In this document: positions 11,668-30,492 of the stretch, one piece after another | Position numbering within the stretch: the stretch's first letter is position 1 | How the letters are laid out: each line of letters starts with the position of its first letter | Assembly (NCBI GenBank): GCA_910592345.1 | Contig: CAJVPI010000230.1 | Span: 1 to 40,783 of the forward strand | Direction: 5' to 3' | Source: Paraglomus brasilianum | Taxonomy: Eukaryota | Length of the DNA: 40,783 nucleotides | The notes under the pieces: generated by a model | Database searches by the model: none | What the model saw: the letters and a program-made list of their open reading frames with translations, nothing else | Told to the model about the DNA's origin: nothing | Translations under genes and position numbers: made by a program

Positions 11668-13030
11668 ATGCAATCGGCTGAAGATTATATGGATCCTGAC
11701 GATTTTCTAGCTGAGGAAGCAGTTAGTTTGGTTTTTCATTCATGAGGAGGGTTTTATCTAGAATAAGTGTTTTATATGAAAATTATTTGATAGGTTATTG
11801 GGGTTAAGGGACTTCCATTTGATTCACAAGCGCTGATTAATATGGGCGTCAGCAACCGAGTACGTATGAAAGACAGACGTAATGAGGTTATGTGGCATAA
11901 GCACGCCGTTAATGTCTCGTTGTTTACAGGTTAGAGAAGTGGGTAATAATTATGAAGGCGAAGAACGAGTGGAGAGACGTACGCGTAGTAGCAGGAGACA
12001 ATTTGCGGATGATCACGATAACGATGACGATGACGTCACGAGGGAATCAATACAAGAGATACCTTACTGGGTTGCAATCAAGCTAGTCCAAAAGTAAGCG
12101 GCAGATCGTTATAAAAAATGATTATGTACAACCCAATTCTAGTCTGTATAAATAGAAGAGCAAGATTGCTTTATCTATTCATAACGTGAAGGAGGCCAAT
12201 TTTCTACTCGGAAAGATATCAACTAGTGGATATACAACCGTCATTTTAATGCCCCCCTAATATTCTTTGTAGAGGACTTGGAGAGTTGCAGATGCCAAAG
12301 ATATTTGGCCGACCGGTACGCAACGCATTGAAGGCAGACCCGATTCATGTGAATTTAGTTGAACAAGATCCACGATTCTTTGCATTTGGTGGCAAATTCC
12401 TTGAAGCGTATCCTTTGCATATTTCATGTGTCAATTCCTTACTTCAAAATTAATTATGATTCTTATAAAATTCTAGTGTAGAGGACCCTGAACTGGCTGA
12501 GGTTCTTGATAAGGTCAGTATCACATGATAATACCCATTTATCTGGTGGACTGGTGGATTAAATTATAACTAATATAGTTAGTGAATTGAGCCTCCAACT
12601 TTTTTAGCAAAGCAGTAGTGAATGCGATAGGCTACGTCATTATACTTATCTGCCCTTTATCCCGATTGGCGATTTACAGAGTTACGTACAGCGTACGCGT
12701 GCCACACTTGATCACTTGGAGTATGGAGCGGCAGGTAAGGAGACGGTCTTTGTTTCGAAGATGGACGAGACGGAAAGACAAGGTATGAGCCATTGAAGAG
12801 GAAAAGTCAAATGATATTTTAAATTACCATACATATATGGATACACATTCACATATGTATATATATGTGTGTATACGTATGGTATGCAGGTATATATATA
12901 TATATGTCATTACATTGTACGTTGTGATTGTCATTAGATGCTGACGTATTGTTGTTTCGCATTAGTGTACTTGGCGGGTGTGGAGACAGTCAGGGCATAC
13001 AAGACATGGGCATACAGTCGGAGGGAATAG
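11668..13030 (+). CDS. PSF3: DNA replication complex GINS subunit Psf3, 7 exons
   Basis: Exons 11668-11721, 11794-11859, 11930-12093, 12273-12407, 12477-12513, 12680-12782, 12966-13030. The spliced protein reads MQSAEDYMDPDDFLAEE...EIPYWVAIKL...MPKIFGRPVRNALKADPIHVNL...RFFAFGGKF...FVSKMDETERQVYLAGVETVRAYKTW, which matches the Psf3 motifs DxDDxLA, ELPxW, ALKADP and LDExER. Confidence 0.9.
12408..12476 (+). other. Candidate U12-type (minor spliceosome) GT-AG intron in PSF3
   Basis: The donor reads GTATCCTTT, the U12 consensus. TTCCTTAC at 12435-12442 and TTCTTATA near 12460 resemble U12 branch sites. Removing the intron restores the Psf3 frame. Confidence 0.7.
12835..12906. repeat. TA/TG-rich low-complexity microsatellite in the last PSF3 intron
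   Basis: Runs such as catatgtatatatatgtgtgtatacgtat and gtatatatatatatatgt. Confidence 0.6.
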
Positions 13031-13843
13031 GCGGGTGCAAGGGGAAAAGATGATTGGGTCAGAGGATGAGTGTGGGAACAAGAAAACAACGGGAGCAGGT
13101 TTTCATCTTGATATTTCAGTTGACGTGTGGAACCCCCATATGTAGATAGAAGCATTAATATGTAGTTGTAGTTGTATATCTCTTGAATGTTCAGTTTCCC
13201 TCTCAATTAAACCTGTTTGTTTCTATGACGGCGCTTCATTTTCTTCGTTTTCAGTTAGTTCGATTGCAATTTCGTTGTTTAAAATTTGCAAGATTTTATG
13301 CAACGCATACTTGGCTGTGCATGCTGAATGATGTGCTCGGCATAAGTAAATGCAATGCCTAAATAGTACAACTTGTAGTAGTAATTCAGATCGTCCATAT
13401 ATTTGGAAGTATGATGTTCGCTACTGTTTGGTTAGTACGTAGCAAGTAATTTGGGTTAGCGGTATGCATCCTATGCATAAGAATGTGAACGGATTTCAGT
13501 GCCGCAAAAGCAATTCAATTGTATCAGAACATTGAGTTACTTTATGCGACACTGAGGTAGTAGTACAGTAAGAACAAACGCCTCTTATTTCATTTATAAC
13601 GCCACCTAAATCATTTGATCTTTCTACTCTTCTCAGTTTCATGTCTCATACTTGTATCTCTTTTTCCACCTGTCTGAAGTCAGGTGTATGATGTCATATC
13701 GGCTGGGATAAGGGGAGACATTCATATGAGATCATATGTATAGCTATGATTTGCGTGGGATAAAACTGTCAGGGAAACGACCCTTTGATAAAACAGTATT
13801 ACATAGTATAGTTTGTATTATAAATTATAAAATGCTATCGATA

Positions 13844-13893
13844 TACTACTGTTATTACTACTGTTATTACTACTGTCACTACTGTTAATACTA
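13844..13893. repeat. Short tandem repeat, 12-nt unit TACTACTGTTAT, about 4 degenerate copies
   Basis: tactactgttat tactactgttat tactactgt cactactgttaa tacta. Confidence 0.7.
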
Positions 13894-14173
13894 TACGTTT
13901 GCAACAACTTGGCCTCTTCTCCTCGTTTATTATTATGATCATTGGTTGCATGTGCTCGGTGCAATGTTAGTAGTGCTTTGCACTTAAAGCATATGAATAA
14001 ATTAACTGAAGCAACCAAAACGGGCATAGCGTTTATCATCCCCGTAGATAGAATACGCGATAAACAATGAACACATTGAATGTAGTAACCATATTAATAA
14101 TATCTGATAACGCAATCTCCTTACGATGATGTACTGCTTATAACTACTCACTGTTTAAATCTTTATACTCCTA

Positions 14174-14219
14174 TATATTATACTATTACATACTATTATA
14201 TACTATTATACTATTATAT
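14174..14219. repeat. Short tandem repeat, TACTATTATA-like unit, about 4-5 copies
   Basis: tactattaca tactattata tactattata ctattatat, upstream of the kinase-STAS gene. Confidence 0.7.
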
Positions 14220-14670
14220 GCTCTACATACTCTCGCTTCCTCATCTTCTCATCTTGCATATAGTTTATACAATACTACATTCATTCTTATGTACAGAGAA
14301 CAATGTTCTACGCATATCCATAGTCTGCCATTATTAGATTACTTTTTTTCCTCCGCTTGTGTTTCGCAAATACGCTTATCTTGCAGCATCCTAAAACTTA
14401 CACTAAAATAACTACTAAGCCTCCGGTTGTACAGTGGCGTAATAACATATTTTTGTAACAAATTCATCCTCCTTCCCATCACCACATAAATACCCCAACC
14501 TTAAGGTCTGAAAAATCTCACGACCAGTCACTTACCCCACAAAAACACAAAAAAGAAGAAGTCGGTTTTGAAGATTTTCATAGAACAAACGAATACCATC
14601 ACGAGAATTGAAAGGTCTATATAATCCTAACGAAGAAACACTCAACGATTAACATACCGATAACTCAACA

Positions 14671-16278
14671 ATGGCACCAGCACCAGCAACAAAAAACATC
14701 CCCATCGTATTAGAAGCGGTAAACCAAGTAACAAACTGTGTCAGCCAACTTCCATACAATGAAGGATTCGATGAACGCGACGTTGTCGAAATCTCAGTGA
14801 CCACCGCTCCCAAGGCCAGAATAGAAATTGCAACAGTCTCTGCAATCATTCAGTTTTCATGCAATCTTGTTCTCTCGAAAGCTGTATACGATGTCCGAAT
14901 AGAATTTCCTCGTATGAAACTACCATTTGCGTGGACCAATAGATCCATCCGCGACGTACTCTACGCTCCTAACGACAACCCAATTGCCCTCGAAGTGGTG
15001 AGCGATGACTGCCGTCTCACGGTCTTTAAGAATAACGATGACGCTTGCAGAGACGAATGGTATGATGCAATCAAGCATTGGCACACTAATTTGCCGCCGA
15101 GATTTCACTTGTTGTTGAACGAACTTGTGGAGAATGTATCCGCCCATGCGCAGCTTCCAGAAGACAGGTTCTGTTTCACTGTTGGATTACATTTTTACAA
15201 AAAGAAGGTAATAATGAATTTCATTAGGGGTCTTGTTACCTGCCATTGCATGTGAATACTCAGCATTGGTATATTCGACCTGCATTAATCCCGTACATTT
15301 CAAACGAATAGCATGTCGATGATCGGCTGATACTAACACTTTTCATTTCCTTTTCTCTTTCCCGCCCACCTCCCTTTCCCCCCTTTTTTCCCCACCATCG
15401 ATTAGCTCTGCTATTGTGTTGCCGATTGCGGTGTCGGTCTACATGGGTCGCTCCAACAAGGAATCGTAGAGGACGCTAAAGCCGCTGCCCGTCGTGCTTG
15501 TGCTCTCTATTTGACACGCCCTCAAGTTACCTCCAAGGGTATCGAGAGAGGACATCAAGGTGTTGGCCTCTTTATCACAAGCGAATTATCTCAAATGAAC
15601 AAAGGCTACGTCCAAATACTCTCCGGTTTACAAGAATACGAGCAAAGAGGTGAGCATAACTATAATCATATACTTTTGATAGTATAAAAAAAGTTCATAT
15701 GACGATCAACCAGCAATGCTACTAAATAGGCTGGATTTTCATGTGTAACTTTGTTCTTTATCACCAATATCACACCCCCCCCCCGACTGTGCCTATATTA
15801 ATCTCTCTTTTTGTATTTTTGTATAATAATAGATACCACTGTTGTACGTGTCAGGGGTATTGCTGAATGGAAAGGCACTATGGTCCATGGTGCGATCAAC
15901 TTGGACCAAGAGTTTAATTATCGGCGAGCCATGAAATTATTTTCCAACCCAAATGACCTCAACAACGACCGATTTCTCGTTGCTTCGGTGCATCTCAACG
16001 TATATGGCCAGAAGAACCTTCGCACTCGTGAATTATGTGAAGAAATCATCCGCGATCTGGAAGCAGCTGTTGAAAGATCAACCAAAATAATCCTCGACTT
16101 TACAGATATCGAAGAAATCTCACAGGCTTTCTCTGGTTTTCTTCGCCGATTTGTTACGAATCACTCTAAAGTACGAATGATGATTATGATTCCACCCAAT
16201 GCTAATGAAGACTTACGAGAGGATCTACAAGACTTGAGCGATCTAGCAGCACAGAACAAATCAGATGACGAGGAATAA
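14671..16278 (+). CDS. Bacterial-type GHKL/HATPase_c (anti-sigma-factor-like kinase) fused to a C-terminal STAS-like (DUF4325-like) domain; 3 exons, 408 aa
   Basis: Exons 14671-15207, 15406-15649, 15833-16278 total 1227 nt in frame. Bergerat-fold boxes: N box LLNELVENVSAHA, G1 VADCGVG, lid TRPQVTSKG, G2 GHQGVGLF, G3 WKGT. The C-terminal GQKNLRTRELCEEII...IILDFTDIEEISQAF matches the STAS-like DUF4325 pattern (xLxxR...LDFxxVxxxxxxF). Confidence 0.82.
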
Positions 16279-16569
16279 TGTTTTTAATTATCTATATTTG
16301 ATTATCATATACTATTCTTATCATTTTTTCTTTTTGTATATTCATATTATTCCTATTAGACTCATTGATTAGAAAATAACAGTTTAATATTCGAATATTT
16401 TATATAGAACGGTTGATTACTTTATAGAGTAGCAATCCAAAAAAATTTTCCTTTCATCTCACTACTTTCGCATTGTAAATGCCATAATCGAATAAAAACC
16501 CTTATATATTAAATAAATATTATTACAACTAAATTGTAATAGAAACCAAGCATAGACAACGTCAAATCA

Positions 16570-17037
16570 TTAAGTTTCAATACTTCGAGTCTGTATACCA
16601 GCAATACCCATTCCACGTATCAATCCCACAATATAGATCTCTGTTGTACTATAAAGTCTCCCCTTCACTTTATACACTTGCACATTATCACTTCCAAACA
16701 ACTCTTCCATAGTTTGTTCCAGTTTCTTATATTTTTCTTGTTGTCCATATGGATCGTGGTCAGATATCGTTAAAGGAGCAAAGAATTGATCCTTGTCTAC
16801 ACGTTCTGTCTTTATTTCTTCCTGAGCATGTGAAGAATCAAGATTCGTTGTTAAATCAGCGAATAGCTCTGCTGACTCGGGTAGGCGTTCGAGTTCCTTG
16901 TTCTCAAAGAACACAAATTCAAGTGGTTCGTCTCCCTCAGAGACGTAATACAAATCAGACGACGCTGCAACAAGTTTATCCTTAACCTGCAGCAAATCGA
17001 TCGGGCGTGCGCTAGAGCTATCGGACGGGTTGCCCAT
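16570..17037 (-). CDS. nuiA: Nuclease A inhibitor-like protein (NuiA family), intronless, 155 aa
   Basis: Aligns by eye along its whole length with Anabaena NuiA: LVAASSDLYYVSEGDEPLEFV vs LKQASDGLLFMSESEYPFEVF; VDKDQFF vs VDIDSFF; KYKKL vs KFQKL; VQVYKV vs PQVYRL; EIYIVG...GIAGIQTRSIET* vs DVYVIG...NLAGISTKVVET*. Confidence 0.88.
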   Translation of the reverse strand: MGNPSDSSSARPIDLLQVKDKLVAASSDLYYVSEGDEPLEFVFFENKELERLPESAELFADLTTNLDSSHAQEEIKTERVDKDQFFAPLTISDHDPYGQQEKYKKLEQTMEELFGSDNVQVYKVKGRLYSTTEIYIVGLIRGMGIAGIQTRSIET

Positions 17038-17260
17038 CGTTCTTGGAAGAAATATGTAGAGATCGCCGTGGCGTAAATGCCAATTTATGGTGTGGAAATG
17101 ACGTTTAAGTCACTTGACCAAACCTATTTCATATCGATATTCTTATACATAGTAATAGGTATTTCTCAATAGTAACCAGAACCTGATTCGATTGGCCAAA
17201 TGGAAGTTCGTTTGATCGCTTAGTTAATTGAACGATTGATGCAAAAGCAATCGCTGGGCT

Positions 17261-17870
17261 ATGAACGAACTTAAAGACTTATCTCAACACCTGCTCGATT
17301 ATAACAGACAAACTTTTGAGAAAATTGTGCAAGATATAGAAGTAAAATACAGGGAGCGGGTTAATGTAAATAAGAAAATGTGATGCGAAGTTGAGAATCT
17401 GAAGACGCAAGTGCAGGAGGCGGGAAAAATTATCGCATCCATGAAATCAGATTCTACGCATTGTGAAGGTATATTTCAGGCGAATTATGAATTTGCGCAA
17501 ATAGCTAGCTATTCGGCGAAACATCTTCACGCGAGATATTCAATAATCATTAGTATTTTTGCACAATTATTTGGTAGGGATTAAAAACAGTATTTTATTG
17601 CATTATTGGTCTTTTTTTTTTTTTTTAATAAATTAATACACAAGAAGATCTATTATAACTTATGAATGCAGCATGGAAGATAGTGAAAGTAGTGCAACTA
17701 GTCATTCTGTCAATAATGCGTCTACTACTATTAGCGATGAATTCTCTCCTCATATCAAGTATTATAACATGCGCAGTAAACTGTTACGTGAATTAAAACA
17801 AATTATCCCAGAGGCATCCATCATCACGAGTGAGCGAATGGAATAAGCGGCAGTTCAGGCTTGTGCGCAG
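17261..17870 (+). pseudogene. Degraded remnants of hypothetical, partly coiled-coil protein gene(s)
   Basis: Protein-like frames are interrupted by stops: MNELKDLSQHLLDYNRQTFEKIVQDIEVKYRERVNVNKKM*CEVENLKTQVQE, and MRSKLLRELKQIIPEASIITSERME*AAVQACAQ followed by a GT donor at 17871. Family not recognised. Confidence 0.4.
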
Positions 17871-18209
17871 GTATCATTTATACTAGGTTAATATACCAAC
17901 ATTAATGTTATTGTCTTGCTCGAATACGGATGAGACCAACGCGATGACTCTTCATATTTTTCAAAAAAAGCTCATTAAGCAGTTTGTAAGAAAGCTCAAC
18001 AATTTGATCAATGAACTCTTTGTAAAAGCCTTGCATATTATTCTAATTCAAATTGTAAGAGAGGATACGCGAAACAAATTCGATTCAAAAGTCTAACATT
18101 CCGTCACAGTCGAAAGAGTGGTTTTCTGTTATCTCACTCTGCTGATGGCACAAATAGATTAACGCAATCAATTTCCACGTCAATTTAGATAGGTTGTTGT
18201 TGTTTTTTA

Positions 18210-19550
18210 CTGAAAACAAAGAGTCGAAATAAAGAAGCAGAATAGTATCGGGACAAAGAAAGAGACTACTAAATTTAATACGTCTTTAAGTGCAGATTGA
18301 AGGTCAATTTATTTGATTATTATTATATTATATATCCGTAAAGTGATAATGCTTTCAACTTACCTTTTTTCTGTCTTTTACTCTTTTTCTTTTCTTTTCT
18401 TTTCTTTTCTTTTTGATTGTTATAATTTACTATTACTACTACTATTAAGATTAAAACTAATATTATATGAATTAAATACAGTATGTTACATGGTAAATCT
18501 ATACGTCACAGATTAATATAATACAAGTAGAAAAGGGTGGATAATAATCGAATGACTATTGCTCCAAACCGGCATCCCAAGCGGCAAACTCACCTTTCAT
18601 CTCTAACCGGCTTCAGAGACAGATCCTTCACAAGTAGCTAAGTAATCACCGAATCAGTCCCTCAAACCCGTCCACCTCCCCAAGTGTCCCATTGGATCCG
18701 GTCACCGGCAAACCGTCAGTGAAAAAAAAAAAAGGGGAGAGAAGAAAAAAAGAAAATAATAGAGTTAGTTTATAACGTAAAACAATGCCATACTTACCTT
18801 ATACTTACCCAAAACCTTCTCCCCGTCATCTAAAGCTGTGTAAAAAGAAAGAAAGAAAAAGGAGATGTCTCAGAGTGTTCCGGGCATCCCCCGTGACCCA
18901 CTCATCGGACCCGTGCCAGATCGCTTCACCGCCGGCGAGCACTGGGGACAATGGCGAGTAGAGAGGCATCACCGGTAACTACCCACCACCCGATCCAGAT
19001 CCGCCCATCCACCAGCAGAAACGAAGGAGAGCAGCCACCTAGTGAACCGATTAAAAGCATATTTTTTAGTCAGCGATTATTATCCGCCCATTTACCTATT
19101 TCTGTCGTCTGAACTTTCCAATATACGACAAATAGAATTAATCACATGAGAAAGGTAGTTTCTTAAGAAAGTTGTCGTGGATAAGTAAACGTCGGTATAA
19201 ATATTACGTATATAAAGTCGCTTTGACATAGTAATATATATAGTAGGTTATCACTGGATAAAAGTAAACAGAGAGTGTTATACGAAATATTTTCTTAGGT
19301 ACCTAATCATGCGCTTTTGATCTACTTTCCCATTCACCCTTCTACTTACCTCGTCCTATTCGTTGATGTCGGGGCTTCTGGCACCGGCGTATTAGATCGC
19401 TTGGGTATTGAGCTTAGACCTTGTCGCTTTTTCTAATACAGCATTTATTGTATTTCTTCTCTCTATTTTGTTTCTTTGTCATCCAGTAGTGAAAATTTCT
19501 TTGATAGTGTGCAGTCCGTCAAAACATTGAGAGCGTAAACAGCGCCCATG
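18210..19550 (-). ncRNA. Candidate spliced non-coding transcript containing two GC/GU-rich structured RNA domains (family unrecognised)
   Basis: Strong minus-strand donors (GAG|GTAAGT at 19349; GTAAGTAT at 18808 and 18797; AAG|GTAAGT near 18363), polypyrimidine acceptors, and no convincing ORF. Long helices with G-U pairs lie at 19039-18861 and 18718-18553. Confidence 0.5.
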
Positions 19551-20795
19551 CGTTTTGAGGTGTGTCCAAATTCCTGCGGTTTTCGGATTGATGTTGGTGA
19601 ATACGCCGAGTGGACTTGGCGCGCGCCGATAGAAAGTTTATACAGTCAAAACCGGTCCGAGTATAGAGTTAAAGTAGTGGGAAGAGCAAGATTATGTGTC
19701 GAAAACTTTTCGAAATCTAATTAATATAATAGATATAATAATAATTATTGGTTATTTCATGACGCGATTATTAAATTTAGTGAAGCGAGAAGATATGTTT
19801 GTTGAAAAGACGTCGAAATCTGAACAAATTAATAAACGTACGTATAATACAAGTTTCCCCAAACTTCTTTATTATTCACTCGGTGTGGTAAGAAGCAGAT
19901 TTGTGTTGTGTGCCATACGTTAGTGTGGAGGGGCAGAATGTTCGCCCTTGTGCAAACTCTTTTCGTTGGTTATGTGGTTGGTAAACCGTGTCGACGTTGA
20001 GTGTTAAGAGTCCGTTGTTTGAGACTCGTTCGTGAGCGTAACATGGCGTGGCAGCAAAGGTATATTCGTTGTATATTTAAATAATGTTGGGTTTGTGCTT
20101 TGGGAGAGAAGAGGTTGTTGTGAAGCGATACATGTGCAATGGAGAAAAGCGTCCTGATATATATATATGAGTAGACGCGTATTCGCGTGTTAGATGATAA
20201 TATTAGTACTACTTGATATTGTTAATGTTGTTATTTATGCAATAGGGAGTGTGAAAGACTACTGTTAACCAATAGAAAGCATAAATGATATCGACATCTG
20301 TCTAATATAACACATCATGACATCATATAGCGGCGAATTCCGTATTGTCACGATTGTTTCCGTAAAAGAGAACAATAGTATTAGTGTAGCGTTTTAGAAC
20401 ACACGTGGTAAAATAATTTTCATTGGTTATTAAGTCGTAAATCACGCGTATAATTTTAATTAAACTGATCTCTATGATAGTAGATAATCTCGGCAGTATT
20501 ATATTAACATGGCCTTGTAATACAGCGAAAACTTACATAATAATCGTAAATTATCACTTTATTATTTTATCGAATAGACCATTCTATTGAATTAAACACA
20601 ACCCATTAAATCAAAATTTTGATATTAGCTGCGTGGACGTGAGATAACGTAAGATCAACACAATTCAAACAGTTGGAAGAAAACCACAATCCAACGCGAA
20701 TATTAATGATAAATAAATGTATTTTTTAAATTAATAATTATGAAGACAAAAAAGTTGCCGACAATATATTGACCAATTGCTTATTTAAATTAATA

Positions 20796-23057
20796 ATGAG
20801 TTTAGTCCTCAGGAAATACCCATTAATTGAAAGAGAGTTGACACCAGATAAACCTCGATAAGCCCGAAGAACGGCTTCCTATTGTCACAAGCGGTAAAGC
20901 AGTTCACGAATTACTAATTATGTTGGTCATCAAAATGACAGGCATTTTGGATTCCTTTCTACGAGGAAACAATTAAATATTTAATCTAAACAATTGTTTA
21001 TAAAGAAATTATTGCTTAATGTAATGATGTTTCATGTGACTCAAATACAGTATAACGGATTTCGATCAAATGACGGAATTGTTAACCAATTTTTATTCAG
21101 TGGTGAAAATTATTTTACGATTCTTAGGTTTATAGAGAAAACCAAAGACGTAGAGCGTGCATAGCCGTAATGCATTACGCTGACAATGGTTGCTAACTTT
21201 ATACTTGTCCAACAAACAAAAGCTTTTGTCGATATTATGCCATCGAATTCTTTGACTTGAACGATGTCATCTGTTTTAGGGGCTCGTACAATAATAGACG
21301 GCACCTCTTTAGCGGCTGAATATTATGAACTTAATGCGGAAATCACTGACATAAGTCAAGCCGAATTGACTGCGCTATTTGCAAACAAATGTTTCATGGC
21401 GGTAGCATTGAAGAAACGATGATAGTGATGCTGTTACTTGGAAGCGAGGAAATATGTACACCAACTCATATGAGAGAAGTTGCTAGAATATACTCTCTTT
21501 CAACACGCAAGCACAACAATGATGCCAGTCAGTTTAGAAGATTTTCCACATGGCTTAGACATCGCTACAAGGATTCACCAAGCATGAAGATAACTATTAT
21601 CTGGTTGCTCGTAAGCGCTTTTATCATTATTATTTTCTATATGGATTCTGCTCTGCATGTGGAATACTCCGATGTGGACATAAAAAATTATCCAATGGAT
21701 AGACTAGCAACAATAAACGACTCGACGAGTTTATTAAGAAATCTCAAATACAAACGAACTCAGCAAACGATTAGAGTGATTGTATTGATAATAAGGGATA
21801 TCGTGTATACTTAAATAATAGTCTATCTATTACTACTTATCTTGGAGTAAAATGGATTCCACTTGACATAACAGATGAGACGGACGAGTCATATTACTAT
21901 TCGTCATGAATATATCGTGTTTATCGATTGTTTAGATAATTTTTGATTTTGTGTATAATTTTTATAGTTATGTGATGAGCATCAAGATATTCTTACCACA
22001 GATGTTTGGGTGACCATTGGATTTACATATGATGCAAGTGAATAGAAGTATTATATAAAAGAACGAGATAAGATTGGAGTATGTCTGGCATGTACGCGTC
22101 GATTAGAACCTAAGATAAATATATTCTGTTATCGTTGTAAAGCACCAAGGTCTCCCGATTGGACTACGGGCAATAAATCTTTGGATTCGTTTATTATGGA
22201 ATCGTGGCGTAATGCGAAGAATAAACATAATGCCTATATACAATGGATAGAGTACCCTCTATTGACAAACGTACGAGATATGACACCATTACACACATAT
22301 GGCAGAATTTTTAGAACCGATAACAAATGAATGGACAAGAGTAATGCTCAGACAGATAGAGCTCGGTTATTTGATTTTTATCAGGTAAATTATTTCAACT
22401 CAAATATAAATAGAATTACTTGCGTCCGCGCACGTTGATTGATTTTTTATAACGACTGTATTAATAGTTAACCAAGGAATATCCGGAGATATTAACACCA
22501 GAAAATATTTGGATCATTGGTATCACTCAAAGCCATCTACTCGAAAATATTGTTTGGTATTCTACTACGAAGCGCGGATTAATGGAGATGTTAAGTATAT
22601 GCAGCATGCGGATTTTGCTGAAATCAATGAGATTGGATCTGGTGGTTATGGAACAGTCTATACTGCCAGATATAAAGGCAAATCAAAACTTATTGTCCTC
22701 AAACGCTTTAAAAATTTTGATGAGACACCGGAATTGTTTATTTCCGAAGTAAGCAATCTTTGGTATTAAATTTAATCTAACTCTGTATTTATTTTTTTTT
22801 TATTTAATAGTTCAGACATCACACCAAGTGCGCGCGTTATGGTTTTTCTTGAAATTTATGGAATCATGCAAGATCCAGAAACAAGGGGGTACATGATTGT
22901 TATGCAATATGCTAATAACGGCAACATTTTGTCTTACTTGGATCAAAATATCAACAAATTGATGTGGAAGATGAAACTAGAGTGTTTGAAAGATATTGCA
23001 CAGCATCTGTATTTTATTCACTATGCGGGATTTGTGCATTGCGATCTTCATGGTGGA
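20796..23057 (+). pseudogene. Degraded, 3'-truncated tyrosine-kinase-like protein kinase of the family expanded in Glomeromycotina
   Basis: Two family-typical N-terminal motifs, CGHKKLSNG*TSNNKRLDEFIKKSQ (TAG 21700-21702 where Trp is expected) and WTTGNKSLDSFIMESW...YIQWIEY. Kinase core EIGSGGYGTVY, IVLKRFK, IYGIMQDPET...MQYANNG and FVHCDLHGG. Several in-frame stops (e.g. 22043-22045) and no DFG/APE region. The 5' boundary is approximate. Confidence 0.8.
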
Positions 23058-24051
23058 GTGTCTGTGAAGACTAATGTTATGGCATATATTCCTCCCCTAA
23101 TTTCTGCGTAACACCGATGGTAGCACAGGAGAATTCGATTATCGTGTCGCAATCCTCGAACTTCAGCACTTTCGAATAAGTAGATTTTCCATATGTTATT
23201 CCCCGTTTTCTGCAACAGAAGGTTTACCTCCCTAAGTGATTTACATCTTGTAGCAACTACTGATGACAATTTTCGAACGCACAATATTATTATCCTAGTT
23301 GCGTAAAGAAATCTTGTTTTTCTCATTTTACAATATCTTTGAAACTAACAGAAGGATTTGATGATATCATTCTTTTCTTTAGTGAGAGAGAATAATAGTA
23401 ATAAATATCGACAGTTAGTGCTTTTGAGGCATTAAAAAGATTGGAATGTTTTTAATTTAACAAAATAAAAAAAAAGCCGAAAGTTATTTAAAAGCTGTTA
23501 AACTTTATACGTAACTTGGCCAAAATTATATAAGAATTATTATTATTTTCAATAGCTGTTATTATTATAATACATACAGTAATAGTAAGAGATGTAAATT
23601 GTTAAAATTTCTTTCCTATGGAAAATTTTAGTTGTTTGGTTAAACTTTTAAATATATCCTGGGGAAAAGCCCAACTTTGAATTGACGAAGAGAGAATTAA
23701 TAACAGTTATTATATTTATTATTCATGATAATAATGATAGCTTTGGGACTAGGTACAATCCTTTGTTTAGTATTTATATATTCAAGAGCAGCGCACAAAA
23801 AAAATTGTATCAAGTAGCGAATGCAAAGCCTTTGTTATGCAATTGTTCCGAAATCGGCCAGTTCGAAATAAGCAATTTATTTCGATAGATTGTTTATGAC
23901 GTAGACGATTGTCGTTAAACTCGCAAAATTGTAAACAATTGAATGTAGGTCACGCAAAAGGATGAGAATTTTTTGATGTATGACAAGCCTCCGCCAACAA
24001 GTAGTTTATATTAATATATTAATATGTATACATTATTCTGTAAACGATGCC

Positions 24052-28782: not shown

Positions 28783-29819
28783 TGATGAAAATTAAAAACG
28801 GAGAATTTGTCGATCTGTTATTAGGACAAAAACCGATTGGAATCTCAATTGCCATATTAGGTAGCCCCGAAAGATGCAAACGCTGACAATGACCCCCAAC
28901 GAAAATCCGCAACCAAAGACGCGAATAAAATTTGTATGCCATAAACATGTAACAATTAATGATCACTGTATGATTCGAAAGCTAAAGGCATTTATCAAGC
29001 TGACTTATTCACTGTTCAAAGGTCACCGTACACCCGACATAAATGAGTAAATGCTTTGAAATTTTCCTTGCTATAATGTATTACAAATCCTGATTACCTG
29101 TAAAAACTTTAGCTCGGTCGAACGTCTTCAGTAAATTTTCTAAGCATCCTGCATTTGCATTTGTCTCTAAACCATCAAACCATATCAAAACTACACATCA
29201 CTTGTGCTTTAAAATCCATATCTTCACGTGTTCTGATAGCTCTGCATGATTTTTTTTTATTAAGCTCACTCTACGTGTGGGTCCGACCGACAATCAACTA
29301 CCGAGAAAGGATAACTTCGAAATAATGTTGGGAAATATTTGTCGGGAAATGATTGTCGTTGCCTCCCCTACGTGTCCCTCTTATACTTGCAATAACGCGC
29401 ATGATATCCAATTAGCTGCACGATTGTTCATCGATTGTGATCGGCCAATCAGAGAATTTCACCTATATTATCATTGATGAATCTTTTTTGATTGCTAGTT
29501 AACTTATTGTAAAGATTGAACCCACATTTCCTTTATTTGTTGTCTCAACCACATTTATAATCACGGGATACCAAAAACCTTACGCGTAATCGAAAAACTT
29601 CTTTCTAGCGAACCTCAACGTAAACAGCAAAACTATTTCTTCTCTTTTACGCGTATCATCTTGTTCTCTAGAAAAAGGTAAGTTGTTATGTCTTATTAGT
29701 ATGACGACTCTTCTCTTTTCATACCTAATGTATACTTTTTGTTAGTTTGTTTTCGAAAAGAAGGACGATTGGAAAGGAGAAAAAAAGAAACAAAGAAAAG
29801 CGGGAGAAAAGAAACAAAG

Positions 29820-30492
29820 ATGGAGGAAAAACTGGTTGAGAGAAATAGGAAAGAGAAAACTATTCAGGAAGAAATCGACGAGGCATACCAAGCCTGGTGT
29901 ATTGCCGCGGATAAAGACGCAGACCTTAAATGTACTGCAGTACAAAACGATGAACCACTCCAAGGTATGCTTAGCACTATCGCTATATAAGAAAAACGCC
30001 AAATATTTATGAACTTATTACTCTATACTTTCAGGGAAATTACTTTTAGAGCCCGCAACAAAGCTTTCAAATAAACCACCTTCGCTTTGGAATGAAGACG
30101 ATGTTATGCCAATCGCAAAACTTATCTCCGGTCGAATTGCTATCGATGGAACAGGGGATAACAGCGAGGGAGCTTGGGCCTTTGCTATGATAAGCCATGA
30201 ATTCAATCTATTTTTAGATAAGCACGATGAGATACGCGGATTAATTGATCCAACCTACGTTGTAGCCGATGTTGGTGGGCAAAATTTGCCCAACTTTCAA
30301 CTTAACCGCTACCCACCACCAGGTAGTCCGATTAATGCATTGACACAATATTCAGATTCAAAATATATATGGGCTTTCAACGGTGCTGGGGGAATTAATC
30401 GAGCACAGCATTTAGTTGGCTGGATCCAAGCTTTGGTTCCTGGGATTAGATTATTCGTATTCAGCACTAATTCTCCTGCACAATATTTTTAA
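29820..30492 (+). CDS. Hypothetical protein, 200 aa, 2 coding exons plus a probable 5'UTR intron
   Basis: Exons 29820-29964 and 30035-30492 join in frame (603 nt) across a GTATGC...TTTCAG intron. An upstream GTAAGT at 29678 and ctaat...ttag near 29745 suggest a UTR intron. No domain recognised. Confidence 0.7.

What the first reader, a model, noticed from the sequence alone, without database searches (positions are those of the whole stretch)
14671..17037. Two-gene bacterial-type islet in a fungal chromosome: a GHKL kinase-STAS fusion convergent with a nuclease inhibitor (NuiA)
Seen: two intact ORFs face each other 291 nt apart, between a core gene (PSF3) and decayed accessory DNA. Known: anti-sigma-type GHKL kinase/STAS partner-switch modules and NuiA are both characteristically bacterial. 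HATPase plus DUF4325 genes often occur near toxin/nuclease or defence loci, and NuiA is the immunity protein for NucA. Inference: this may be a horizontally acquired, domesticated sensing-plus-immunity module for dealing with bacteria (endosymbionts, cyanobacteria, antagonists) or controlling a nuclease. No cognate nuclease is visible in the window.
Basis: partly seen in the sequence, partly recalled or inferred. Interest (0 to 1): 0.85.

Follow-up and report, generated by a model that had tools for sequence, protein, structure and literature searches.

The report
Bacterial stress kinase in mycorrhizal fungi
A mycorrhizal fungus carries two real genes of bacterial type side by side: a spliced gene kept across these fungi, whose protein is predicted to be a relative of bacterial immune-switch kinases, and a small nuclease-inhibitor gene that is likely just a chance neighbour rather than its partner.

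Summary
Both genes are real. Gene A (14671-16278, +) has three exons and 408 aa; its introns are spliced in 7 and 8 of 8 RNA-type runs laid. Gene B (17037-16570, -) is an intronless 155-aa NuiA. The stops lie 291 nt apart. The window is Paraglomus (arbuscular mycorrhizal fungus, AMF).

Gene A is conserved (62-87%) in 10 AMF genera, and no other fungal relative surfaced. It is predicted as STAS-like, SpoIIAB-type GHKL, DUF4325 STAS: the superfamily of the ssDNA-activated immune kinases CapK/VapK (2026). All ATP-site residues are kept, but the fused STAS has Gln where VapS has its phospho-serine. Its probable Rhizophagus orthologue was listed in 2018 as a recent bacterial transfer; the spread here makes it old.

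The module reading fails where tested: in cyanobacteria nuiA faces nucA (75 of 82 loci), gene A's relatives sit with a PIN RNase, and the two were never adjacent. Adjacency is seen only within Paraglomus; other AMF genomes could not be read. The scan noted fungal NuiA relatives before on other DNA, but not gene A.

The parts
14671..15207 (+). Gene A exon 1 (aa 1-179): predicted N-terminal STAS-like domain with invariant P85 and W88, then the GHKL N-box (E151, N155, H159) and a basic hairpin (K178)
   Evidence: splice joint
15208..15405 (+). Intron 1, 198 nt, GT-AG, phase 0
   Evidence: skipped in 7 of 8 runs
15406..15649 (+). Gene A exon 2 (aa 180-261): GHKL G1 box (D186, G188, G190) and G2 box (H229, G231, G233)
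15650..15832 (+). Intron 2, 183 nt, GT-AG, phase 1
   Evidence: skipped in 8 of 8 runs
15833..16278 (+). Gene A exon 3 (aa 261-408): end of the GHKL sheet and the C-terminal DUF4325/VapS-like STAS domain; Q358 stands at the phospho-serine column
16279..16569 (.). 291-nt convergent intergenic stretch, 77% A+T; gene A contigs of three runs end at 16499-16500 (one with an adaptor tail), near AATAAA at 16491 and 16512: a weak hint of gene A's 3' end
16570..17037 (-). Gene B: intronless NuiA-family nuclease-inhibitor homologue, 155 aa, acidic (29 D+E, 16 K+R), with the S-E motif (E34) and C-terminal E-T; no in-frame upstream ATG, so no AUG-started presequence
   Evidence: covered by contigs in 4 of 8 runs

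Best explanation
These are two real genes of bacterial families that likely reached this fungal lineage separately and likely sit together by chance; the larger is a spliced gene conserved across arbuscular mycorrhizal fungi that is predicted to encode an ATP-using anti-sigma-type kinase. Gene A: likely acquired once, before Paraglomus split from the other sampled AMF (inferred from its spread). It keeps every ATP-site residue (shown in sequence). Its fused C-terminal STAS domain lacks the serine that such kinases phosphorylate (shown by alignment), so it cannot run the bacterial phospho-release switch on that site (inferred). Most likely the STAS domain acts as a built-in, non-phosphorylatable pseudo-substrate that holds the kinase shut until a ligand binds the N-terminal STAS/GHKL groove, and the kinase then phosphorylates a fungal protein not yet known (inferred by analogy with SpoIIAB-SpoIIAA and CapK/VapK; ligand and target untested). 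Gene B: a cytosolic NuiA that likely plugs the metal site of a NucA/Nuc1/EndoG-type nuclease with its C-terminal threonine, guarding the shared cytoplasm against the fungus's own mitochondrial nuclease or an incoming bacterial one (inferred; target not in the window).
For: Gene A spread: 19 clusters of 305 candidates; 14 named ones are Glomeromycota of 10 genera, 1 bears a plant label, 4 have no name; 62-87% identity. A profile search of 1.84 billion representatives found 2 proteins under 1e-30 and 10 under 1e-10; of the 10 looked up, 2 are named AMF pieces, 1 is a close unnamed piece, and the rest are 1 named bacterium and 6 unnamed or taxon-less metagenome proteins. Atlas neighbours are clusters 83-100% bacterial. 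Fold: pLDDT 92.5, pTM 0.91; residues 111-287 match SpoIIAB at Z 12.8-13.0, rmsd 2.7-2.9, 133-134 aligned, against 10.5 for the next family; residues 306-408 match a STAS protein at Z 8.8, rmsd 3.0, 94 aligned. E151, N155, H159 in 19 of 19 rows; D186, G188, G190, G231, G233 in 18 of 18 rows that cover them. Link to VapK/VapS: hhalign to VapK-like kinases 94.8%, E 5e-8, 135 columns; C-terminal domain to VapS-like proteins 83.7%, E 8e-6, and to fused bacterial forms 92.5%; a cyanobacterial neighbour STAS matches VapS (PDB 9Z7O) at 9e-18. Phospho-site column: Q in 17, K in 2 of 19 AMF rows; the next column is A in 19 of 19 where 18 of 21 fused bacterial forms have S. Independence. NuiA residues: S-E-x-D/E-x-P and terminal ET are in both Paraglomus proteins and in 116 and 118 of 119 other hits; the C-terminal residue forms the metal bridge (PMC2790893, passages).
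Against: No kinase activity, ligand or target is shown. The N-terminal domain has no significant profile match to VapK or fused bacterial N-termini (hhalign 2-3%); its STAS-like call rests on the model's strand-helix order and Atlas structure matches over residues 5-299 (TM 0.57). The tree does not name a donor: AMF form one clade (100/99) on a long stem in an open fork, outside the VapK-like clade (96/90; 50 of 173 rows, no outgroup), so the direction of transfer rests on distribution alone. Two bacterial relatives also lack the serine (G-Q-A-F), so the loss may predate the transfer. The pair is adjacent in both Paraglomus species with records (consecutive gene numbers, same 21,624-nt contig length), so linkage has lasted at least since their split. 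The bacterial neighbourhood sample is cyanobacterial only, Nostocales-heavy, and one search scored at most 9 candidates per genome.
Confidence: 0.55

Rival explanations
1. One reading: the two genes came in together and work as one sensing-plus-immunity module against bacteria or a nuclease.
For: Convergent, 291 nt apart; adjacent in two Paraglomus species; both proteins 87-90% identical between them; one contig of a run guessed to be RNA spans both 3' ends, which shows no single transcript; both families occur in cyanobacteria.
Against: nuiA faces nucA in 75 of 82 loci; 1 of 82 has a weak GHKL-family hit. No NuiA in 20 kinase loci and no kinase in 30 NuiA loci (flanks mostly 1.5 kb). 6 of 6 genomes with both have them on different contigs. 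The kinase's bacterial partner nuclease is PIN-type (12 of 18 loci). Different spread in AMF.
Confidence: 0.1
2. Gene A is a domesticated single-stranded-DNA sensor, working like CapK/VapK: ssDNA from damage, viruses or endobacteria binds between the N-terminal STAS and GHKL domains and switches the kinase on.
For: Same STAS-GHKL layout as CapK/VapK (PMC13373217 sections 7, 11-14). VapK's ssDNA lysines (K180/K181 in the paper) lie in the GHKL hairpin that aligns with AMF 177-179, where K178 is 18 of 18 and 179 is K/R in 18 of 18 (my hand count, the paper's numbers run 5 ahead of its listed sequence). Invariant W88 and F86 (18 of 19) lie in a strand-helix loop inferred to face the same side.
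Against: No aromatic residue stands in either loop that holds CapK W68 or VapK F54 by secondary-structure register (AMF 15-18, 44-52). Hairpin lysines are variable among bacterial relatives. If the Rhizophagus gene is the orthologue, its high steady expression (97.9th percentile) suits a housekeeping role as well.
Confidence: 0.2
3. Gene A no longer transfers phosphate; it is an ATP/ADP-binding switch or scaffold whose STAS domains bind fungal partners according to nucleotide state.
For: Canonical acceptor serine absent in 19 of 19 rows; no separate STAS substrate or PIN gene in the window; anti-sigma factors also act by binding (established knowledge).
Against: E151 and H229, at the columns of SpoIIAB's catalytic Glu and Arg (columns; their roles recalled), are invariant; best fold match is the kinase SpoIIAB rather than GHKL ATPases.
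Confidence: 0.25
4. Gene B is not a separate bacterial import but a member of the old fungal NuiA-like lineage (PF23151), inherited vertically.
For: Scores 42.8 bits on PF23151; Atlas structure TM 0.66 to an Ascomycota cluster; at most 34% identical to the 119 listed mostly cyanobacterial hits; GC3 0.37 lies within the 0.34-0.44 of the other window genes measured.
Against: Scores higher on bacterial PF07924 (54.7 bits); top Atlas feature hits are bacterial clusters (0.90) and bacterial TM is 0.69-0.70; intronless; found only in Paraglomus by word search. No fungal NuiA sequences could be fetched, so no tree was built.
Confidence: 0.4

Closest known systems
VapK/VapS/VapC and CapK/CapS (Chambers et al., EMBO J 2026, PMC13373217; PDB 9Z7O, 9Z71-9Z73)
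   Same: STAS-GHKL kinase layout, N-box Asn, basic hairpin, and a VapS-like (DUF4325) STAS domain.
   Different: Kinase and STAS are fused; no phospho-serine; no PIN toxin or wHTH; AMF fall outside the VapK-like clade; eukaryotic with introns. The paper's main text has no occurrence of 'fung'.
Rhizophagus irregularis ESA12330.1 'ATPase, DUF4325' (Li et al. 2018, PMC5982333)
   Same: Probably the orthologue: the R. irregularis cluster of P0009 is named DUF4325 domain-containing and only one such AMF family surfaced. Listed as a bacterial transfer by taxonomic distribution; FPKM 166.6, 97.9th percentile.
   Different: Identity with P0009 was not checked by sequence. The paper calls the transfer recent and gives no mechanism in the passages read; here the gene spans 10 AMF genera including Paraglomus.
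SpoIIAB-SpoIIAA / RsbW-RsbV partner switch
   Same: Best fold match of the GHKL domain (Z 13.0, rmsd 2.7, 133 aligned); STAS partner fold at the C-terminus.
   Different: Single chain with an extra N-terminal domain; Ser58 column is Gln; 17% identity; a sigma-factor target is not expected in a fungal cytoplasm (knowledge).
Anabaena NuiA (PDB 2O3B, 1J57; Pfam PF07924) and fungal NuiA_2 (PF23151)
   Same: Aligned over residues 18-155 (E 0.002); S-E motif and C-terminal Thr kept.
   Different: About 30% identity; no nucA partner in the window; faces a kinase gene instead.
Bacterial fused STAS-GHKL-DUF4325 proteins, including the N-terminal module of PADLOC DrmA model PDLC02567
   Same: Same three-domain order and length (404-444 aa); gene A hits model positions 138-351 at E 2e-5.
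   Different: 17-21% identity; most keep a Ser one column on (18 of 21); uncharacterised in the papers searched.

Membership tests
SpoIIAB-type GHKL kinase | Bergerat fold with N, G1 and G2 boxes | tested here: met
   Z 12.8-13.0 to SpoIIAB; residues invariant
SpoIIAB-type GHKL kinase | Phosphorylates a STAS serine | not testable with these tools
   No activity data; own STAS lacks the site
VapKSC system | STAS-GHKL kinase homologous to VapK | tested here: met
   hhalign 94.8%, GHKL part only; N-terminal part unmatched
VapKSC system | Falls within the VapK clade | tested here: not met
   VapK-like clade 96/90 excludes AMF; no AU test run
VapKSC system | STAS partner with conserved Ser/Thr (VapS S48) | tested here: not met
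   Q358 or K in 19 of 19 rows
VapKSC system | Adjacent PIN/VapC gene | tested here: not met
   None among 1337 window pieces; rest of genome not held
CapK/VapK ssDNA sensors | ssDNA-stacking aromatic (W68/F54) and basic hairpin | tested here: inconclusive
   Hairpin K178, K/R179 kept; no aromatic in the two known loops; W88 in a third loop
CapKS | N-terminal HTH on the kinase and STAS-wHTH repressor | tested here: not met
   Model shows a strand-helix N-terminus and no room for a wHTH after the STAS; Pfam finds none
NuiA (PF07924) | Score over the family cut-off; NuiA fold | tested here: met
   54.7 vs 22.1 bits; Atlas TM 0.69
NuiA (PF07924) | C-terminal Thr metal bridge and S-E motif Glu (the label Glu24 is recalled) | tested here: met
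   T155 and E34; metal bridge per PMC2790893
NucA-NuiA pair | Convergent nucA gene | tested here: not met
   No NucA-like piece in the window; present in 75 of 82 bacterial loci
NucA-NuiA pair | Binds and inhibits a beta-beta-alpha-metal nuclease | not tested

The most novel reading that the evidence does not exclude
The ancestor of arbuscular mycorrhizal fungi took over a bacterial immune sensor of the CapK/VapK kind and kept it as a core, abundantly expressed gene: a eukaryotic anti-sigma-type kinase that detects single-stranded DNA (from damage, viruses or endobacteria) in the shared multinucleate cytoplasm and signals to fungal targets, with its STAS antitoxin domain turned into a non-phosphorylatable lid. 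In Paraglomus it may be paired with a nuclease inhibitor to restrain Nuc1/EndoG.
Probability: 0.2. Interest if true: 0.85.

Novelty: new variant of a known kind. Interest (0 to 1): 0.5.

Why it matters
AMF are hard to study genetically, and genes that all sampled lineages keep but other fungi appear to lack are prime candidates for what makes their biology distinct. Gene A is one such gene, and it now has a mechanistic handle: its bacterial relatives were shown in 2026 to be ssDNA-activated switches of immune operons and toxins. That makes a bench test direct (ATP turnover with or without ssDNA, substrate trapping). It also moves a transfer listed as recent in Rhizophagus back to at least the Paraglomus split, if the orthology holds. 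The two-gene module itself is unlikely.

Tried and rejected
Contaminating bacterial contig: rejected; spliced introns and eukaryotic neighbours (peptidase M3, importin-beta-type, Na/Ca exchanger, RNase H2C, P-type ATPase). Recent import from cyanobacteria: not supported for either gene. Mobile-element insertion: only short, weak repeats in 12900-21500. Whole genome not held, so no search for Nuc1, PIN or paralogues. Metagenome scan gave 3 loci of 211 pattern matches, all short: two transcripts ending 102 and 345 nt after the match, and one 99.6% copy of the window; adjacency in other AMF stays untested. NuiA had no cover in 4 of 8 runs; this is not evidence on expression. First AlphaFold model on 19 AMF rows was poor (pLDDT 62.8) and was not used. 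Foldseek gave no match under 0.001. VapS was not among the 50 rows shown. tblastn of P0001 against plasmids: no match; P0167 in genome contigs: none of 597 stretches. NCBIfam: nothing for P0001, P0009, P0026. Searches drew the same 250 genomes and count once. Alignment A2 misaligned the C-terminus after S357; the domain was realigned alone. A FastTree sister (P0143, 0.88) did not hold in the careful tree. Literature: 'DUF4325' gave 3 papers; 'NuiA, fungal, horizontal' 1; AMF + anti-sigma + STAS domain 2 unrelated; NuiA/fungi/Nuc1 showed no fungal NuiA study among the 15 listed of 153. Ciach et al. 2024 (passages of the preprint; 2 supplements) gave no hit for DUF4325, NuiA or their Pfam numbers. 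The NucA-NuiA structure paper was not held.

Full report
Observation. Gene A runs 14671-16278 on the + strand in three exons with GT-AG introns of 198 and 183 nt and encodes 408 aa. Contigs of public runs skip intron 1 in 7 of 8 runs and intron 2 in 8 of 8, from 8 studies, with no depth in the bins wholly inside the introns. Gene B is an intronless 155-aa frame on the - strand, 17037-16570, scoring 54.7 bits on Pfam NuiA; contigs cover part of it in 4 of the 8 runs. The stops are 291 nt apart. The homology search names the window's own protein as Paraglomus brasilianum, an arbuscular mycorrhizal fungus (AMF). Neighbours are ordinary eukaryotic genes. PSF3 was not confirmed.

Gene A, spread. 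A word search with exon 1 gave 19 clusters of 305 candidates: 14 named Glomeromycota from 10 genera, one labelled as a plant (likely root-borne fungus, inferred) and four unnamed, 62-87% identical to the window protein. A profile search of 1.84 billion representatives found only 2 proteins under 1e-30; after AMF pieces the scores fall to about 1e-12. No other fungus was named in either search, but most of the 150 rows carry no taxon; their bacterial nature rests on Atlas clusters (83-100% bacteria), two named rows and cyanobacterial genomes. Against one related transcript (88% aa) dN/dS is 0.26. Li et al. 2018 (PMC5982333; section 15, passages and supplement rows seen) list an R. irregularis 'ATPase, DUF4325' as a recent bacterial transfer in the top 2.1% of expression. 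It is probably the orthologue, but I could not compare sequences.

Gene A, anatomy. With 87 distant relatives added, AlphaFold2 gives pLDDT 92.5. Residues 111-287 match SpoIIAB best (Z 12.8-13.0) and 306-408 match STAS proteins (Z 8.8). The family profile hits SpoIIAB first and STAS structures weakly at its N-terminus. The N-terminal domain is STAS-like by strand-helix order and Atlas structure matches only; profile matches there are not significant. All ATP-site residues are invariant. Many bacterial relatives share the fused three-domain order.

What the bacterial relatives do. In 18 cyanobacterial loci the kinase is followed by a separate DUF4325 STAS in 12 of those scanned and is fused to it in 2; a homologous PIN-like third gene is present in 12. 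One such STAS matches VapS (PDB 9Z7O) at 9e-18. Chambers et al. [quoted passage not shown] Gene A matches VapK-like kinases over the GHKL domain (94.8%) and VapS-like proteins over its C-terminus (83.7%), but in a 50-row tree of the GHKL core the AMF clade (100/99) stands on a long stem outside the VapK-like clade, with no supported sister. It belongs to the superfamily, not to VapK proper; the donor is unresolved.

Mechanism. The VapS S48 column is Q358 (17 of 19) or K, and the next column is Ala where 18 of 21 fused bacterial forms have Ser. S357 is invariant but sits just before the helix, where a capping role is likely (inferred). So the bacterial phospho-release cannot run at the canonical site. 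A STAS domain without its serine is expected to bind the ATP-loaded kinase stably (the SpoIIAB complex 1TID used a Ser58-to-Ala partner, per the legend), so I favour a built-in pseudo-substrate lid on a ligand-gated kinase with a fungal target. The basic hairpin that contacts ssDNA in the VapK model is kept (K178, K/R179), the known stacking aromatics are not, and an invariant W88 may or may not replace them. ssDNA sensing is therefore open (about 0.2); a non-kinase nucleotide switch is the other rival (0.25).

Gene B. It keeps the S-E motif and the C-terminal Thr; the C-terminal residue bridges the nuclease's metal (PMC2790893, passages). It has no in-frame upstream ATG, unlike the dual-start forms that earlier notes of this scan describe in other fungi (unchecked). 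A word search found it only in Paraglomus (2 of 20 candidates); a profile search listed 120 of 1240 hits, with P. occultum the only named eukaryote. It is at most 34% identical to those. Whether it is a separate import or part of the old fungal lineage is unresolved.

Are they a module? In P. occultum the two genes have consecutive numbers on a contig of the same length, so the pair predates that split. In bacteria they are not linked where I looked: nuiA faces nucA in 75 of 82 loci and 1 has a weak kinase-family hit about 5.5 kb off; in 251 cyanobacterial genomes 15 have the kinase, 29 NuiA, and the 6 with both have them on different contigs. These samples are cyanobacterial only and related to each other. 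The window has no NucA or PIN gene. NuiA inhibits a different nuclease fold from the PIN RNase tied to the kinase family (knowledge). Other AMF genomes could not be read, so linkage there is untested. I put the module at about 0.1.

Verdict. Real genes, unlikely module. The lasting interest is gene A: an old, AMF-wide, domesticated member of the CapK/VapK/SpoIIAB superfamily with an altered STAS site, whose transfer was probably tabulated in 2018 but not interpreted in the papers my searches reached. New variant of a known kind; interest 0.5. Supplements 11 and 14 of PMC13373217 and the PDF supplement of PMC5982333 were not searched and could bear on prior description.

Noticed in passing
P0043 (Diversispora eburnea, 538 aa): A decayed piece of the gene A GHKL domain lies between a methyltransferase and an AIG1 GTPase domain in one predicted protein; a second, degenerate copy or a gene-model chimera.
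   Followed up: no
PADLOC model PDLC02567 (DrmA), positions about 28-413: This DISARM helicase model begins with a STAS-GHKL-DUF4325 module that gene A and 11 of the other 12 proteins scanned bar P0026 and P0143 hit, suggesting a kinase-helicase fusion in some DISARM loci.
   Followed up: no
L125, L126, L127, L129 and other cyanobacterial matches: Open frames of 290-450 aa with two weak NuiA-like stretches each: a tandem NuiA-like protein family.
   Followed up: no
window 15845-15865 and 16599-16619: 21-nt inverted repeat (86%) with one arm in each gene; probably chance.
   Followed up: no
window 22046-23111: Pieces of a Tyr/Ser-Thr (TKL-type) protein kinase gene in several frames; spliced or decayed, not resolved.
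   Followed up: partly
window 29700-30492: Two open frames (96 and 159 aa) with no convincing Pfam match.
   Followed up: partly
P0006, P0023: Gene A homologues filed under the plant Anthurium amnicola with unrelated names, one in the same 90% cluster as the window protein: likely fungal transcripts in a plant data set.
   Followed up: no
P0015 cluster (Entrophospora): Several gene numbers per species suggest gene A is duplicated in Entrophospora.
   Followed up: no
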